From assembly GCA_963782915.1 (NCBI GenBank), contig CAWALK010000015.1:262792-326791 (forward strand): 64,000 nt of DNA, read 5' to 3'. The notes beneath the pieces were generated by a model. The model worked only from the letters and a program-made list of their open reading frames with translations, was not told the DNA's origin and ran no database searches. This document shows, in pieces, positions 12,859 to 32,368 of the stretch. The position numbers and the translations under genes are program-made. This DNA is from an uncultured archaeon. Its GTDB lineage: Archaea; Thermoproteota; Bathyarchaeia; Bathyarchaeales; Bathycorpusculaceae. How positions within the stretch are numbered: the first letter of the stretch is position 1; each line of letters starts with the position of its first letter.

Positions 12859-12935
12859 TGGTGCGGTAACCGGGATTTGAACCCGGGTCCTAGACTTGGC
12901 AAGCCTATGTACTGACCAAGCTGTACTATTACCGC
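12859..12935 (-). tRNA. tRNA-Gly (GCC), CCA encoded
   Basis: Reverse complement GCGGTAATAG...TAGGC-TTGCCAA-GTCTA...GGTTCAAATCC...ACCGCACCA folds as a cloverleaf. Confidence 0.97.
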
Positions 12936-28711: not shown

Positions 28712-29779
28712 CTAGAAGCTACGGTACCTGCGTTGCTTTCTGGATTTAGGTTTTCTTAGTCGTTCACCGCATTGCAAACAGAAAGCTATTCCATTCGATA
28801 CTGGAAGCGCTTTGCCTGCTGGCCAAAAATGACCGTTTGGACATTTTAGGTCAAAATCAAAAGCTTGGGTTTCGTAATCGTGGGGGTTGGCGGTGATGTC
28901 TTGTTTGAGAGATACGTTGCTTTTGATGATTTCGTGTGGCGGATAGACGGGTGCGGGGATGATTATTTTGGGTGTGAGGGGTTTGGCTGGCGCTTCCGGT
29001 TTTGGTTGAGATACAGGTTTTGGCGTAGGAATTTGTATGGCGACGACTACGGGGTTTGGTTGAACAACGATAGGTTTTGGCGGTGCAATGGGTATAACGG
29101 GGGCAACGGGTTTTGGCGTGGGGACCGGTGTAGAGGCGATAACAGGTTTTATCTGAACAGGAGGTTTCGGTGGTGCAACCAGTATAGCGGGAGAAACACG
29201 CGGCACAGGTTGAGCAACTGATTTTTGTTGAACAACCGGTACATAAGCAACTGGCCTAGGATTACGTATGAAGTTAGGTGAAGCAACACGATTAGGTGTA
29301 ACTATGTTATGGCCAGCAACGGGCCTGGCAAAAGAAATAGTAAACGCAGCAACCGGCTTTTTGGGGATAACCCGCTTAGGTTTCATGATATGCTTTGCTG
29401 AGATAACCGGTTTAGGCGGCTCAACGGCTTTCACCTGAGGGACAATTTTGACAGGTGTAGCAATTTTGATTGGAACGACTGCTTTAGGGGCAACTGCCTT
29501 AACCGCATTAACAGGTTTTGGTGCAACCGCTTTCACAGCAGAAACTGCTCTGACATGAGCAACGACCTTGGCGGGTTTGTCTGTGATAACTTTGATTTGA
29601 ATCGGTGAAACTTCAGGAATCATAGCCTTAGCTATCTTTGCTGATCCAGTAGCACGCAATGCGTGGCTAGTTTGGATGCGTTTGGTATTTATCATTGGTG
29701 CAGTAGTTGATGTCCTGCAATCAGGGCAACTTTCGCTGTATTCAACGAGTCTACGTCCACATTTTCGGCAAAACGGCAT
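28712..29779 (-). CDS. Zn-ribbon protein with Pro/Val/Lys-rich linker
   Basis: N-terminal CRKC..CPDC, C-terminal CPNGH..CLQC. Confidence 0.75.
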   Translation of the reverse strand: MPFCRKCGRRLVEYSESCPDCRTSTTAPMINTKRIQTSHALRATGSAKIAKAMIPEVSPIQIKVITDKPAKVVAHVRAVSAVKAVAPKPVNAVKAVAPKAVVPIKIATPVKIVPQVKAVEPPKPVISAKHIMKPKRVIPKKPVAAFTISFARPVAGHNIVTPNRVASPNFIRNPRPVAYVPVVQQKSVAQPVPRVSPAILVAPPKPPVQIKPVIASTPVPTPKPVAPVIPIAPPKPIVVQPNPVVVAIQIPTPKPVSQPKPEAPAKPLTPKIIIPAPVYPPHEIIKSNVSLKQDITANPHDYETQAFDFDLKCPNGHFWPAGKALPVSNGIAFCLQCGERLRKPKSRKQRRYRSF

Positions 29780-29888
29780 ATGTTCACTCTAACTTTTCAG
29801 GGAGAAGATGACTTGGCGCCCTTTAAACTTTAACACAGTCATTGGGGTAAAGTTACCTGAATGTTTAAAGGCTGTTGAACCCAGTTTT

Positions 29889-30061
29889 GTGGTGGGTGGG
29901 CGATGACGAGTCTGGCCCCGCAGACAATAGGATGATGTGGATCTTGAGTGCGATTGACGTTAACTATGACACCGTTTAGGCTTGACTTAAACGCAGAGTT
30001 AACGTCTCAAGAGCTCACCTAATAGATTTCCGACAACTAATCAGCAGGCACCACTTTTTTT
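29889..30061 (+). ncRNA. Candidate structured non-coding RNA
   Basis: TTTAAA at 29864, nested stems, closing GTGGTG/CACCAC, T7 tract; C/D-like boxes in the 5' half. Confidence 0.6.
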
Positions 30062-30169: not shown

Positions 30170-32368
30170 ATGGTATCGAAAACACGTTCAACCCTTTTTG
30201 GTCTCTTTCTAATTTTTATCTGTATTAGCTCCGTTTTAATCGTTTCATTATCAGCAGAGTTGTCACAAGCCACAGCAACAGTCCTGTTCTCAGATGACTT
30301 TGAAACAGGAAACCTATCCAAATGGAACGACAGAAACGGTAACCCCACCGTTAGTACAACCTACAAATACAGCGGAAATTACGCATGCAGAGGACAATAC
30401 TCCTTTTCTGAACCGATCTATGTTTTTCCTTCCCCGGGTCAACCCGAAATATACATGCAGTACCAAGCATATTTCACATCTTTACCCGCTGCAAAAGAGG
30501 GTTCCTTTATTGAATCAGGCACAATCGCTGTTGGCAATCTGTTCACCTCACCAACCGCTGATGCAATAACAAATGCGGGAATAATCTACACCGGAGGAAG
30601 CTACAAATGGGTAATGTGGTACACATCGCCCACCAACAGTTCAGGCGGCGCTATATACATAAATTCTCCTACGCCAAGCGCAAACACATGGTTTAATTTA
30701 TCAATGTATGTCAAAATTGACTCCGCAAACGGCCTGGTTCGTTTTTCAGTAAATGACGTTGTTAAATCTTTAACGGATTTGAACACCGCATCACTTACCA
30801 ACACATACGGGAACCCTAACGTTGACAGAATCATAATCGGCAATGGCATGACCGTTAATTTCGCAGGCGAAGTATGGACCGACAATGTAGTTGTCACCAA
30901 TTCACTTTCAGAGGTGCCGCCAACACCTACACCAACCCCTAACCCTTCACCCACACCCACTGTTAATCCGACACCAACGCCCACGGTGACGCCTACTCCG
31001 ACGCCAAATCCGACAACCCCTGCCGTAGCAGCAAGCTGGTATGCATCAGACGGAACCCTATATGCGGGCGGTACAGACAAAGTTTACAAAAGCACTGACG
31101 GAGGCACCACTTGGTCAAACCCATTAGTGACAGTCGCAGGTTCAACAAGAATAGAATACATTTACGTAGCAGCCAACGGATACTTGTTTGTTTCCTCCAT
31201 TAACGGACAACTCCTAAGAAGCAGAGACAACGGAACATCATGGAGTACTGTGTATACTTTACCGTCAACGGAGGAAGTATTAAGAATAGACGAAGATACA
31301 TACGGTAAACTCTTTGGCTGTATCTACACTAACGACGCAGGTTCAGATGCAAGAATAATACGCAGCACCGATAACGGCACAACCTGGACAACAGTATACA
31401 ATAATCCTTCGGCACGGCACTTTCATGACTTAGCCGTCGATAGATACAATGGCAATGCGATTTATGCTTCATTCGGTGACGATTTTTCACCGTGGAATAC
31501 GCATGGAGTTATTAAATCAATTGACGGGGGCCAAACATGGACAAACATACTCCCTGACCTGCCCCAAATTGTCGGCGTTGGCGTAACACCCACAGCCAGA
31601 CTATTCGGAACTGACGATGGCAACTCACCTGCAGGCGTATGGAGAACCACCAATGACAATACCTGCTCTAGAGTTTTTACGGTTGGTTCAAGCAACTATG
31701 CCTCCATCGGCTGGATATTTCGAAGAAACCCCGTGACCGGAAATGTTTACGTTAGTATGCTCTCATGCGAAAAAACACCGCTGATTAGTGAGATCGCAAA
31801 AAGCACCAATGATGGAGCGGCATGGACTGTTGTTAGAAATATTCAAGCAACAATTTCTTATGATGGCGCGTCAATGGCAAGTAACTTCTATAATAATGTG
31901 GTTCAGTTCGGGTTAGTATATAGCGAAATTCCTTCTGGGCTGGTAACGATAACTGATACGGGTAATCCATTACCAACACCCACTCCAACTCCAACGGCTT
32001 CACCGACGCCCACTCCGACGCCCACGCCTCAACCGACTGCCACTCCGACACCAACACCTACGCCAACTGCAACTCCCACACCTACCCCAACACCCACACC
32101 TACGCCATCCCCAACATCAATCCCTCTAACCGCCGCAGTAGAAATTGAATCAAACGCAACCAAAGTCTCAGCCATACAACTAACCACTGCAGCAAGATTA
32201 ACAGTCACAATCACCAAAAACGGCGGAACAAACACCATACAGGCAACGATAAGTAAAACGACCCTTCCAAACATAAGCGCCTTAACATTCTACGTTAACA
32301 GTGTCAAAGCAACCTACACTTACACAAGCACTACTGAGTCATGGATAGTTACAGCAAATGTGAAGTGA
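30170..32368 (+). CDS. Secreted protein: laminin-G-like domain, BNR/Asp-box propeller, PT linkers
   Basis: Signal peptide, FSDDFETG, repeated SxDxGxTW, (TP)n. Confidence 0.8.

What the first reader, a model, noticed from the sequence alone, without database searches (positions are those of the whole stretch)
29864..30061. Stand-alone ~170-nt structured RNA candidate with promoter and terminator
Seen: TTTAAA at 29864, separate from the divergent gene's TTTAAA at 29822. Closing stem GTGGTG(29889)/CACCAC(30049), a small hairpin GTCTG/CAGAC, and a long nested arm TAGG/CCTA, TCTTGAG/CTCAAGA, GACGTTAACT/AGTTAACGTC, CGTTTAGG/CTTAAACG, then a T7 tract. No ORF covers it. The 5' half also parses as box C (ATGACGA), an 11-nt guide, D'-like CAGA and C' (ATGATGT). 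Inference: an atypical C/D guide RNA with a large extension, or an unknown ncRNA.
Basis: partly seen in the sequence, partly recalled or inferred. Interest (0 to 1): 0.7.

Follow-up and report, generated by a model that had tools for sequence, protein, structure and literature searches.

The report
tRNA-Leu methylation guide RNA with insert
This is a small box C/D guide RNA of a Bathyarchaeia archaeon that most likely directs methylation of the wobble base of one leucine tRNA; the RNA type is ordinary, but here a long extra hairpin sits inside one of its normally unbroken signature boxes.

Summary
The feature is real, but it is about 129 nt long (window 29893-30021), not 170. It is a single-copy, independently promoted box C/D sRNA.

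- **Distribution.** Homologues occur across the class Bathyarchaeia (114 of 151 genomes) and in other classes of the phylum (87 of 131).
- **Structure.** The true terminal stem is GGTGGGC(29895)/GCTCACC(30013). Compensatory changes support it.
- **D guide and target.** The D guide (29939-29950) is invariant in its core GAUCUUGAG. It forms 11 Watson-Crick pairs with A31-C41 of tRNA-Leu(CAA). The fifth base upstream of box D pairs with wobble C34, which predicts Cm34. Such a guide was already predicted for Pyrococcus.
- **D' guide.** It has no firm target. The best candidate is an LSU rRNA site.
- **The unusual part.** Box D is split. In this genus a 58-nt hairpin (29953-30010) lies between its C-G and its G-A. 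The hairpin has its own kink-turn consensus and covariation-supported stems. Homologues elsewhere have CUGA, CGGA or CGNGA at this place.

Nothing here was tested experimentally, and the expression evidence is weak. I file it as a new variant of a known kind, of moderate interest.

The parts
29864..29869 (+). TATA-like promoter element (TTTAAA), 31 nt upstream of the terminal stem
   Evidence: Sequence. TATA-like hexamers peak at -33 to -28 from the stem, and 128 of 137 distinct upstream regions of homologues have one within 37 nt.
29893..30021 (+). Whole conserved sRNA (about 129 nt): terminal stem, boxes, guides and insert
   Evidence: Extent of conservation in relatives. A contig of an RNA library covers 29897-30029.
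29895..29901 (+). 5' strand of the terminal stem (GGTGGGC). G29902-A-U then forms the 3-nt kink-turn bulge.
   Evidence: Pairs with 30013-30019. In 32 short homologues, 6 of 7 pairs change on both sides and 0 of 500 shuffles reach this.
29903..29909 (+). Box C, AUGACGA (RUGAUGA with C in place of U at position 5)
   Evidence: Invariant ATGAC in the order. Canonical AUGAUGA in homologues of other classes. Positions 5-6 covary with box D positions 2-1 (alignments read).
29910..29920 (+). D' guide (GTCTGGCCCCG). The base at N+5 is C29916.
   Evidence: 11-nt spacer between box C and box D'. The core UCURRCC recurs in many but not all homologues. The best own-genome match is LSU rRNA around position 1433, 9 bp. 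The target is unresolved.
29921..29924 (+). Box D' (CAGA; CUGA in most short homologues)
29932..29938 (+). Box C' (AUGAUGU)
   Evidence: Conserved (R)UGAU in all aligned homologues
29939..29950 (+). D guide (GGATCTTGAGTG). G29946 is the fifth base upstream of box D.
   Evidence: GAUCUUGAG is invariant in 31 of 31 class-level and 21 of 22 phylum-level model hits. It is the 11-bp Watson-Crick complement of tRNA-Leu(CAA) A31-C41.
29951..29952 (+). First half of the split box D (C-G). It is predicted to pair with G29908 and C29907 of box C.
   Evidence: CG/CG is invariant in 32 of 32 short forms. It is replaced by the compensating pairs CA/UG, UG/UA and AG/CU in other lineages.
29953..30010 (+). 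58-nt insert inside box D. It is a hairpin with a kink-turn consensus: lower stem 29956-29964/29998-30006, bulge UAU 29965-29967, GA 29968-29969 opposite GA 29996-29997, upper stem 29973-29980/29986-29993, loop CUUGA.
   Evidence: Absent from short homologues, which have CUGA, CGGA or CGNGA here. Both stems covary in 12 close relatives: 8 pairs with compensatory change. A strict kink-turn pattern was found here and in 8 other of 69 distinct long inserts, against a shuffled mean of 1.7 and maximum of 6.
30011..30012 (+). Second half of box D (G-A), directly before the terminal stem
   Evidence: GA precedes the 3' stem strand in nearly all homologues
30013..30019 (+). 3' strand of the terminal stem (GCTCACC)
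   Evidence: (covariation)
30055..30061 (+). T7 tract. It may be the terminator of the primary transcript and is not part of the conserved RNA.
   Evidence: Sequence. Only 45 of 133 homologues have a run of 4 or more T within 25 nt after the stem.

Best explanation
The locus encodes an archaeal box C/D small RNA with its own promoter.

**How it is built.** Its ends pair (29895-29901 with 30013-30019). This brings box C (AUGACGA) and box D together into a kink-turn. An internal box D' (CAGA) and box C' (AUGAUGU) form the second protein-binding motif.

**How it most likely works (inferred).** With L7Ae, Nop5 and fibrillarin, all encoded in this genome, the RNA would form a methyltransferase particle. 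The D guide (GGAUCUUGAGUG) pairs with the anticodon arm of tRNA-Leu(CAA), A31 to C41. The base five positions upstream of box D faces wobble C34, so the particle would make Cm34. The intron of the pre-tRNA begins with AUC, so the precursor can pair almost as well (10 bp). Methylation could therefore happen before or after splicing.

**The second guide.** The D' guide has no settled target. In this genus it may direct methylation of an LSU rRNA guanosine, or it may be an orphan, as is usual for tRNA-directed sRNAs.

**What is special here.** Box D is split. A 58-nt hairpin with its own kink-turn consensus is inserted between the C-G and the G-A of box D. This turns the terminal kink-turn into a three-way junction and probably adds a third L7Ae site. 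The C-G of box D still pairs with the C-G of box C, so the guide should stay in register with the kink-turn.

**Shown.** Conservation, covariation, complementarity and the presence of the protein genes.

**Inferred.** Particle assembly, the methylation itself, and any role for the insert.
For: **1. Family anatomy.** 147 homologues were parsed from 149 loci. They share the order stem, G, AUGACGA, 11-nt spacer, (C/A)UGA, 3-12 nt, (R)UGAUKK, GAUCUUGAGUG, C..GA, stem.
- The terminal stem is 98.3% paired. 6 of 7 pairs change on both sides, 0 of 500 shuffles reach this, and slid controls pair at 24-55%.
- Homologues in other classes have canonical AUGAUGA and CUGA.
- Box C positions 5-6 and box D positions 2-1 change together: CG/CG, CA/UG, UG/UA, AG/CU (read).

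**2. Target.**
- The mature tRNA-Leu(CAA) reads GGACUCAAGAUCC. The gene is at G000:C18:190722-190849 and has a 40-nt intron after G37.
- This gives 11 contiguous Watson-Crick pairs with the guide.
- 26 of 30 loci fetched from relatives hold a tRNA-Leu(CAA) with the same GGACUCAAG...AUCCU. Of the other 4, two are cut by contig ends and two are tRNA-Leu(GAG).
- In the own genome the next best matches are tRNA-Ala(UGC) at 9 and rRNA at 7 or fewer.
- The genome holds the 11-mer nowhere except antisense to the sRNA gene itself.
- Guide positions 3-11 are invariant while positions 1-2 vary. This fits pairing with tRNA-Leu positions 31-41 and not tRNA-Ala positions 36-44.
- In homologues with an unsplit CUGA the spacing places C34 at N+5.

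**3. Breadth.** The covariance model hits 114 of 151 genomes of the class and 107 of 151 in the phylum sample, 87 of them among the 131 outside the class. Nearly always there is one hit per genome.

**4. Own transcription unit.** The promoter element lies at a fixed distance and the gene is single copy.

**5. Machinery.** Nop5 and fibrillarin are adjacent on contig 1, and there are two L7Ae-family genes.

**6. Precedent.**
[quoted passage not shown] In tRNA-directed sRNAs the other guide usually has no target (PMC7994747, passages of 'Non-ribosomal Targets').
- tRNA-Leu(CAA) C34 is listed as a predicted site in P. furiosus (PMC7668247, passages of section 8).

**7. Insert.** Both stems covary in 12 relatives, and a kink-turn consensus is present.
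Against: - **No Rfam match.** No family reaches its gathering score. Only sub-threshold hits to archaeal C/D families appear: sR1 at 12.4 bits and snoPyro_CD at 14.2 bits, against cut-offs of 45.
- **Non-canonical boxes here.** Box C has C for U at position 5. Box D is interrupted by 58 nt, and it is untested whether a C/D particle tolerates this.
- **The modification was not observed where it was looked for.** The Pyrococcus paper says the predicted tRNA-Leu(CAA) Cm34 was among positions not detected in the tRNAs they analysed (PMC7668247).
- **A second candidate target exists.** tRNA-Ala(UGC) offers a 9-bp match (C36-A44, N+5 = C40). It is conserved in the genus: the exact 13-mer is present in 24 of 25 genus genomes, the own one included.
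- **The D' guide is unexplained.**
  - No 11-mer complement exists in 41 genomes apart from the sRNA gene itself.
  - The LSU candidate site differs in other families whose guide is unchanged.
  - It fails in 4 of 5 further genomes checked.
- **Expression is not shown.**
  - The RNA-library data are assembled contigs at depth 3-9 from relatives.
  - One contig carries 132 nt of upstream flank, so it could be DNA or read-through.
- **The kink-turn in the insert is not general.**
  - The strict pattern is found in only 9 of 69 distinct long inserts.
  - The second GA is UA or AA in 6 of the 12 close relatives.
Confidence: 0.8

Rival explanations
1. It is the same C/D-type RNA, but its conserved task is not methylation. 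It would act as a chaperone or processing cofactor that holds the anticodon arm of intron-containing pre-tRNA-Leu(CAA) open, or marks it. The conserved D' region would serve a second, non-guide contact.
For: - Most tRNA-Leu(CAA) genes of the relatives carry an intron right after G37. It starts with AUC in 21 of 23 intron-bearing genes, which prolongs the pairing with the guide.
- In this genome and four relatives the intron contains GGUCUGGCC(C/U)C, the same sense as the D' guide.
- The D' core is semi-conserved across the phylum without a conserved complement.
Against: - The sRNA and its invariant guide are equally present where the tRNA gene has no intron (L178, L179, L182).
- The intron similarity is confined to five genomes. 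Other introns are unrelated.
- The exact N+5 register on C34 is kept in all canonical homologues. Only a methylation ruler would require that.
Confidence: 0.08
2. It is the same C/D sRNA, but the physiological target of the D guide is C40 in the anticodon stem of tRNA-Ala(UGC), alone or in addition to tRNA-Leu(CAA).
For: - 9 contiguous Watson-Crick pairs with CACUCAAGA of tRNA-Ala(UGC), and C40 lies at N+5.
- The exact 13-mer CTTGCACTCAAGA is found in 24 of 25 genomes of the genus, the own one included.
Against: - Outside the genus the tRNA reads ...CACUCAGGA.
- Guide positions 1-2, which would pair with the invariant C36 and A37, vary among homologues: UG, UU, UA, AA. Positions 10-11, unpaired in this model, are invariant.
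- The duplex is shorter: 9 bp against 11.
Confidence: 0.07
3. The 58-nt hairpin is not part of the mature RNA. It would be an intron-like or mobile insertion that is cut out, or a neutral expansion of a decaying gene, so the mature or functional sRNA has an ordinary box D.
For: - Inserts differ widely in sequence and length between lineages (30-70 nt).
- Hairpin inserts near box D occur in several families, including one outside the order.
- These archaea have many tRNA introns at unusual places.
Against: - No bulge-helix-bulge motif can be drawn at the insert boundaries. There is a 6-nt bulge on one strand and none on the other in the only exon-exon helix available (read).
- The insert stems covary, and one adenine of the kink-turn is invariant in 12 relatives.
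- The flanking AAGA is conserved in long forms.
- One RNA-library contig runs through the insert without a break. This is weak, because it may be DNA.
- The rest of the gene is as conserved as in short forms.
Confidence: 0.05
4. As first read: a roughly 170-nt structured RNA of an unknown class, closed by GTGGTG/CACCAC, or another element such as an H/ACA RNA, a riboswitch or a repeat.
For: The outer 6-bp stem and the T7 tract exist in this genome, and the minimum-energy fold uses them.
Against: - The outer stem and the 35 nt between 30020 and 30054 are not conserved in any relative.
- The fold energy is unexceptional (z = -1.77).
- Single copy.
- No Rfam family matches.
- No ACA box or two-sided pseudouridylation pocket (read).
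- All C/D features are met.
Confidence: 0.02

Closest known systems
[quoted passage not shown]
   Same: Boxes C, D', C' and D, 11-12-nt guides, a terminal stem, one guide complementary to the anticodon loop with position 34 at N+5, and a second guide without a target (PMC7994747 passages; PMC7668247 passages).
   Different: - A different phylum.
- Box C carries C at position 5.
- Box D is CG..GA with one to four extra bases, or a 30-70-nt hairpin, between G and GA.
- Sequence homology to the Pyrococcus RNA could not be tested.
k-junction (a kink-turn elaborated into a three-way junction; TPP riboswitches)
   Same: A third helix leaves the non-bulged strand of a kink-turn (PMC4005666, abstract and passages; PMC10573300, abstract in the listing).
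   Different: In the described k-junctions the third helix is inserted opposite the loop and stacks on the C helix. Here the sequence places it on the other side of the tandem G.A pairs, between the G of box D's GA and the C-G that pairs with box C. No three-dimensional evidence exists for the present RNA.
Eukaryotic U3 snoRNA 3' domain (terminal C'/D kink-turn enclosing a hairpin with the B/C kink-turn).
   Same: A terminal C/D-type kink-turn with a second kink-turn on an internal hairpin close to box D.
   Different: U3 has no internal D'/C' pair. It guides by its 5' domain and does not methylate. There is no sequence relation. This is an analogy only.
Rfam archaeal C/D families sR1, sR23 and snoPyro_CD
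   Same: Sub-threshold alignment of box C, D' and C' and the spacing over 29899-29959.
   Different: Scores of 9.7-14.2 bits against cut-offs of 45. Different guides. Not members.

Membership tests
Archaeal box C/D sRNA | Box C (RUGAUGA) near the 5' end | tested here: met
   AUGACGA at 29903-29909, with one departure (C for U at position 5). Homologues in other classes have AUGAUGA.
Archaeal box C/D sRNA | Box D (CUGA) near the 3' end, directly before the terminal stem | tested here: inconclusive
   Here C-G (29951-29952) and G-A (30011-30012) are separated by 58 nt. Homologues have CUGA (for example L080, L099 and many class and phylum hits), CGGA or CGNGA. Whether the split box works is untested.
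Archaeal box C/D sRNA | Terminal stem that brings C and D together, with tandem G.A pairs | tested here: met
   7-bp stem with compensatory changes in 6 of 7 pairs, 0 of 500 shuffles as good. GA of box C and GA of box D flank it, with a 3-nt bulge (G-A-U).
Archaeal box C/D sRNA | Internal D' and C' boxes | tested here: met
   CAGA 29921-29924 and AUGAUGU 29932-29938. CUGA and UGAUGA-like in homologues.
Archaeal box C/D sRNA | Guide spacers of about 12 nt between C and D' and between C' and D | tested here: met
   11 nt (29910-29920) and 12 nt (29939-29950)
Archaeal box C/D sRNA | Guide complementary to rRNA or tRNA, with the target at the fifth base upstream of D or D' | tested here: met
   D guide: 11 bp with tRNA-Leu(CAA), N+5 = C34. 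D' guide: only 9 bp with LSU in this genome.
Archaeal box C/D sRNA | Assembly with L7Ae, Nop5 and fibrillarin, and methyl transfer | not testable with these tools
   The genes are present in the genome. Binding and activity need experiments.
k-junction | [quoted passage not shown] | tested here: not met
   The insertion is on the non-bulged strand but between the G.A pairs and the next pair of the NC helix (sequence; definition from PMC4005666 passages).
Archaeal H/ACA sRNA | Hairpin with a two-sided pseudouridylation pocket, a kink-turn or k-loop above it, and ACA 3' of the stem | tested here: not met
   The long arm has a one-sided 6-nt bulge only and no ACA after its base (read). No Rfam H/ACA hit.
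MITE or repeat | Many copies in the genome | tested here: not met
   One match in 3.28 Mb, and one model hit per genome in nearly all relatives.

The most novel reading that the evidence does not exclude
The split box D would be a previously undescribed kind of kink-turn three-way junction, with the helix inserted between the tandem G.A pairs and the rest of the NC helix. The C/D proteins would tolerate or exploit it. The inserted arm, with its own kink-turn, would bind a third L7Ae and give the tRNA-Leu particle an extra module. This would be an archaeal parallel to the B/C arm of eukaryotic U3, with a role in assembly, stability or tRNA recognition beyond simple guiding.
Probability: 0.2. 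Interest if true: 0.65.

Novelty: new variant of a known kind. Interest (0 to 1): 0.45.

Why it matters
- It gives Bathyarchaeia, an uncultured and abundant sediment and soil group, a concrete and testable RNA-modification prediction: Cm34 in tRNA-Leu(CAA).
- One tRNA-directed guide RNA appears to be kept across a whole archaeal phylum, mesophiles included. A crude scan found no other canonical C/D sRNA in this genome.
- Nature repeatedly inserts bases, or whole hairpins, inside box D, a motif usually treated as indivisible. That sets a simple biochemical question for C/D particle assembly and kink-turn rules.
- The family is missing from Rfam. The covariance model built here finds it in most genomes searched.

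Tried and rejected
**1. rRNA target for the D guide.** The longest Watson-Crick match is 6 in SSU and 7 in LSU.

**2. Perfect target for the D' guide.**
- GGGGCCAGAGT occurs in 18 of 41 genomes, and every hit is the sRNA gene itself.
- GGGGYCAGAGT adds only chance-level hits, and the reversed-pattern controls are similar.
- The own-genome scan for 10 or more pairs gave 102 scattered sites.

**3. LSU site as a general D' target.** It is conserved in the genus and one other family, but it reads AGGGCAAGGG in three other families with the same guide.
- One supporting covariation was seen: in G100 the guide has A where one of its two LSU copies has U.
- It fails in G085, G188, G267 and G220.
- 4 of 5 further genomes lacked the LSU segment.

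**4. Other D' targets.** The tRNA-Met 26-34 region, tRNA D-loops and the 16S 3' end give 7-9 pairs, with N+5 at or near the helix end. None is convincing.

**5. Similarity of the tRNA-Leu intron to the D' guide.** It is confined to five genomes. It is left unexplained.

**6. Insert as a nested copy of the sRNA.** Only L003 (11-mer) and L028 (10-mer) exceed shuffles. The other 67 do not.

**7. Kink-turn as a general feature of inserts.** Found in only 9 of 69.

**8. Crude scans for other canonical C/D sRNAs in the genome.** 0 candidates. The scans are too strict to show absence.

**9. RNA libraries.**
- X18 covers only the neighbouring gene.
- X20 covers the core of a relative together with its promoter flank.
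- There is no cover of 29829-29888 in the RNA runs.
- This gives no verdict on ends or expression level.

**10. Tools and papers not available.** Earlier findings of the scan were not open. PMC92551 is not held. Several literature queries failed on term format and were re-sent in allowed form.
Full report
**What is in the sequence.** Only two trivial ORFs of 32 and 34 aa overlap the region. Folding alone is not persuasive. The 177-nt stretch folds at -50.4 kcal/mol, z = -1.77, and 9 of 200 shuffles fold as well. The opposite strand gives z = -1.57. Rfam has no match at gathering scores in the whole window except one tRNA. A permissive scan gives only weak hits to archaeal C/D families over 29899-29959: sR1 12.4 bits, snoPyro_CD 14.2 and sR23 9.7, against cut-offs of 45.

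**Copy number and relatives.**
- The stretch is single copy in its 3.28-Mb genome, so it is not a MITE.
- A DNA search of 40 relatives found the 5' 60 nt at E <= 0.001 in 33 of 41 genomes, the own one included. These cover all but a few families of the order.
- Reading the 30 fetched loci showed that outside the genus the RNA is only 65-75 nt long. It ends with ...GATCTTGAGTGCGNGA followed by the complement of the 7 bases that precede GATGACGA.
- The organism is a Bathyarchaeia archaeon.
- That scan required both guides to be exact, so it says nothing about guide conservation. For that I use only the BLAST-derived and model-derived sets.

**Anatomy of the family.**
- 147 homologues were parsed from 149 loci; 2 were skipped because they sit at contig ends.
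- They share the order: terminal stem, G, AUGACGA, 11 nt, (C/A/U)UGA or NAGA, a variable 3-12 nt, (R)UGAUKK, GAUCUUGAGUG, box D, terminal stem.
- On 32 short forms, 98.3% of the cells of the tested structure (the terminal stem plus the two box C/box D pairs) form standard pairs. 6 of the 7 terminal-stem pairs show changes on both sides, 0 of 500 shuffles reach the observed values, and slid controls pair at 24-55%.
- A TATA-like hexamer lies 28-33 nt upstream of the stem in most cases; 128 of 137 distinct upstream regions have one within 37 nt. In the window it is the TTTAAA at 29864, 31 nt upstream.
- Only 45 of 133 homologues have a T run within 25 nt downstream.

**Box D is the odd part.**
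- It is a plain CUGA in L080 and L099 and CGGA in three others.
- It is CGNGA in most short forms, and CGRRGA or CGAAAGA in some.
- In the window's genus and several other lineages a hairpin of 30-70 nt lies between the C-G and the G-A. There are 76 long forms, 69 of them distinct.
- In the window the insert is 29953-30010.
- The C-G of box D can pair with the C-G that follows AUGA in box C. This pair of pairs is invariant in the order (32 of 32).
- Model-derived homologues from other families and classes replace it by compensating combinations: box C ..CA with box D UG....UG with UA....AG with CU.., and canonical ..UG with CU.. (alignments read).
- That is the pattern expected for the non-canonical helix of a C/D kink-turn. 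It places the insertion between the tandem G.A pairs and this helix, on the non-bulged strand.
- Published k-junctions also add a helix on the non-bulged strand, but opposite the loop and stacked on the C helix (PMC4005666, abstract and passages). The present arrangement resembles them but does not meet that definition.

**The insert itself.**
- In 12 close relatives RNAalifold recovers the terminal stem and both stems of the insert. 8 pairs show compensatory change, all of them in the insert.
- In the window the lower stem (29956-29964 with 29998-30006) is followed by a 3-nt bulge and GA on the 5' strand, and preceded by GA on the 3' strand. That is the standard kink-turn consensus.
- A strict search finds this in 9 of 69 distinct long inserts, against a mean of 1.7 and a maximum of 6 in 200 shuffles.
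- So it is enriched but far from universal. Among the 12 close relatives the second GA is UA or AA in six.
- Other lineages carry unrelated plain hairpins.
- Only two inserts (L003, L028) share significant strings with their own sRNA, so a general origin by self-duplication is not supported.

**Target of the D guide.**
- The complement of the guide is not in rRNA.
- A genome scan found ACTCAAGATC inside a gene on contig 18 that ARAGORN mis-called tRNA-Ser. It is tRNA-Leu(CAA), with a 40-nt intron after G37.
- Spliced, it reads GGACUCAAGAUCCUU, which gives 11 contiguous Watson-Crick pairs (A31-C41) with GGAUCUUGAGU.
- The precursor gives 10 pairs, because the intron starts with AUC.
- In homologues with an uninterrupted CUGA the fifth guide base upstream of box D is the G that pairs with C34. 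In the window that base is G29946.
- Of 30 loci fetched with the tRNA as query, 26 hold a tRNA-Leu(CAA) with the same GGACUCAAG...AUCCU and introns of 0-42 nt. Two are cut at contig ends and two are tRNA-Leu(GAG).
- The only competitor is tRNA-Ala(UGC), with 9 pairs and N+5 = C40. It is conserved in the genus but altered elsewhere.
- The pattern of guide conservation favours tRNA-Leu. GAUCUUGAG is invariant in 31 of 31 class-level and 21 of 22 phylum-level model hits, and the two bases next to box D vary.

**Breadth.**
- A covariance model of 32 short forms hits 114 of 151 genomes sampled from the class, and 79 of 95 good-quality ones.
- It hits 107 of 151 sampled from the phylum. 20 of those 151 genomes belong to the class and all 20 have a hit. 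So 87 of the 131 genomes of other classes have a hit, almost always one per genome.
- Those outside the class have canonical boxes and the same D guide.
- The family is therefore old and widespread in this phylum, and it is absent from Rfam.

**The D' guide.**
- Within the order it is nearly invariant. At class and phylum level it drifts around a core UCURRCC/GCCC.
- No perfect complement exists in 41 genomes.
- The best site in the own genome is LSU rRNA GGGGCCAGGGUU, with N+5 at own position 1433. That gives 12 pairs for the genus consensus guide and 9 for the window's variant.
- The site is conserved in the genus and in one other family, but it differs in three families with the same guide.
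- In five further genomes one shows a matching change (guide A, LSU U in one of two LSU copies of G100) and four do not fit.
- I regard the D' target as unresolved.
- Reviews state that tRNA-directed sRNAs typically have one guide without a target (PMC7994747, passages).

**Context and precedent.**
- Nop5 and fibrillarin lie side by side on contig 1, and two L7Ae-family genes are present.
- The neighbours of the sRNA gene are unrelated: a zinc-ribbon protein and a secreted BNR/sortilin-like protein.
- Literature seen as passages gives precedent. [quoted passage not shown]
- For P. furiosus the tRNA-Leu(CAA) C34 prediction is listed, but it was among sites not detected in the tRNAs analysed (PMC7668247).
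- A search for Bathyarchaeota or Bathyarchaeia together with C/D sRNA terms listed no paper among the 12 shown that holds either group name. I did not find a description of this family or of a split box D. Supplements, snoRNAdb and the original 2001 paper could not be seen.

**Expression.**
- Three RNA libraries hold small parts of the stretch.
- Laid on the window, one 151-nt contig (X19, depth 3, 9 differences) covers 29897-30029 and runs through the insert.
- Another (X20, depth 9) covers only the core of a relative, together with 132 nt of its upstream flank.
- These are assembled contigs that may contain DNA. They show presence in RNA libraries, not a defined transcript.

**Verdict.** This is a genuine, conserved box C/D sRNA that most likely guides Cm34 formation in tRNA-Leu(CAA). 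The kind is known. The family is uncatalogued, and the split box D with a kink-turn hairpin is a new structural variant whose consequences are untested.

Noticed in passing
G000 contig 18, 190722-190849 (outside the window; locus L152/L153): The 40-nt intron of tRNA-Leu(CAA) contains GGUCUGGCCCC, the same sense as the sRNA's D' guide (GUCUGGCCCC). The same is true in four close relatives, one of them with a single change. Other relatives have unrelated introns. No explanation.
   Followed up: partly
Loci L170, L172, L173, L178, L179 (tRNA-Leu(CAA) genes of relatives): Some tRNA-Leu(CAA) genes carry a second intervening sequence in the D-arm/position-26 region, in addition to or instead of the intron after G37. 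ARAGORN mis-called the own gene as tRNA-Ser(CGA).
   Followed up: no
G000 contigs 20 (380444-381932) and 12 (367007-370037): The SSU and LSU rRNA genes lie on different contigs, so they are apparently unlinked. Many tRNA genes encode their 3' CCA.
   Followed up: no
Whole genome G000: Two crude pattern scans for canonical C/D sRNAs (RUGAUGA ... CUGA with a terminal stem and internal boxes) found no candidate. This suggests few canonical C/D sRNAs in this organism. The scans are too strict to show absence.
   Followed up: partly
Locus L028 (genome G032): This homologue carries a partial internal duplication: AATCTTGAGTG, then a 47-nt insert, then GATCTTGAGTG before box D.
   Followed up: no
window 12862-12935 (- strand): The only Rfam hit in the window is a tRNA. 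ARAGORN calls it tRNA-Gly(GCC).
   Followed up: no
window 30170-32368 (+) and 28712-29779 (-): The flanking genes are a 732-aa protein with weak BNR/sortilin-Vps10-like repeats and a signal-peptide-like start, and a 355-aa protein with an N-terminal zinc-ribbon hint. Both matches are below Pfam cut-offs.
   Followed up: partly
Genome G100 (loci L280, L284): Two different copies of the LSU segment (GGGGCCAGGG and GGGGCUAGGG) in one assembly with 5% contamination. This could be two rRNA operons or a mixed bin.
   Followed up: no
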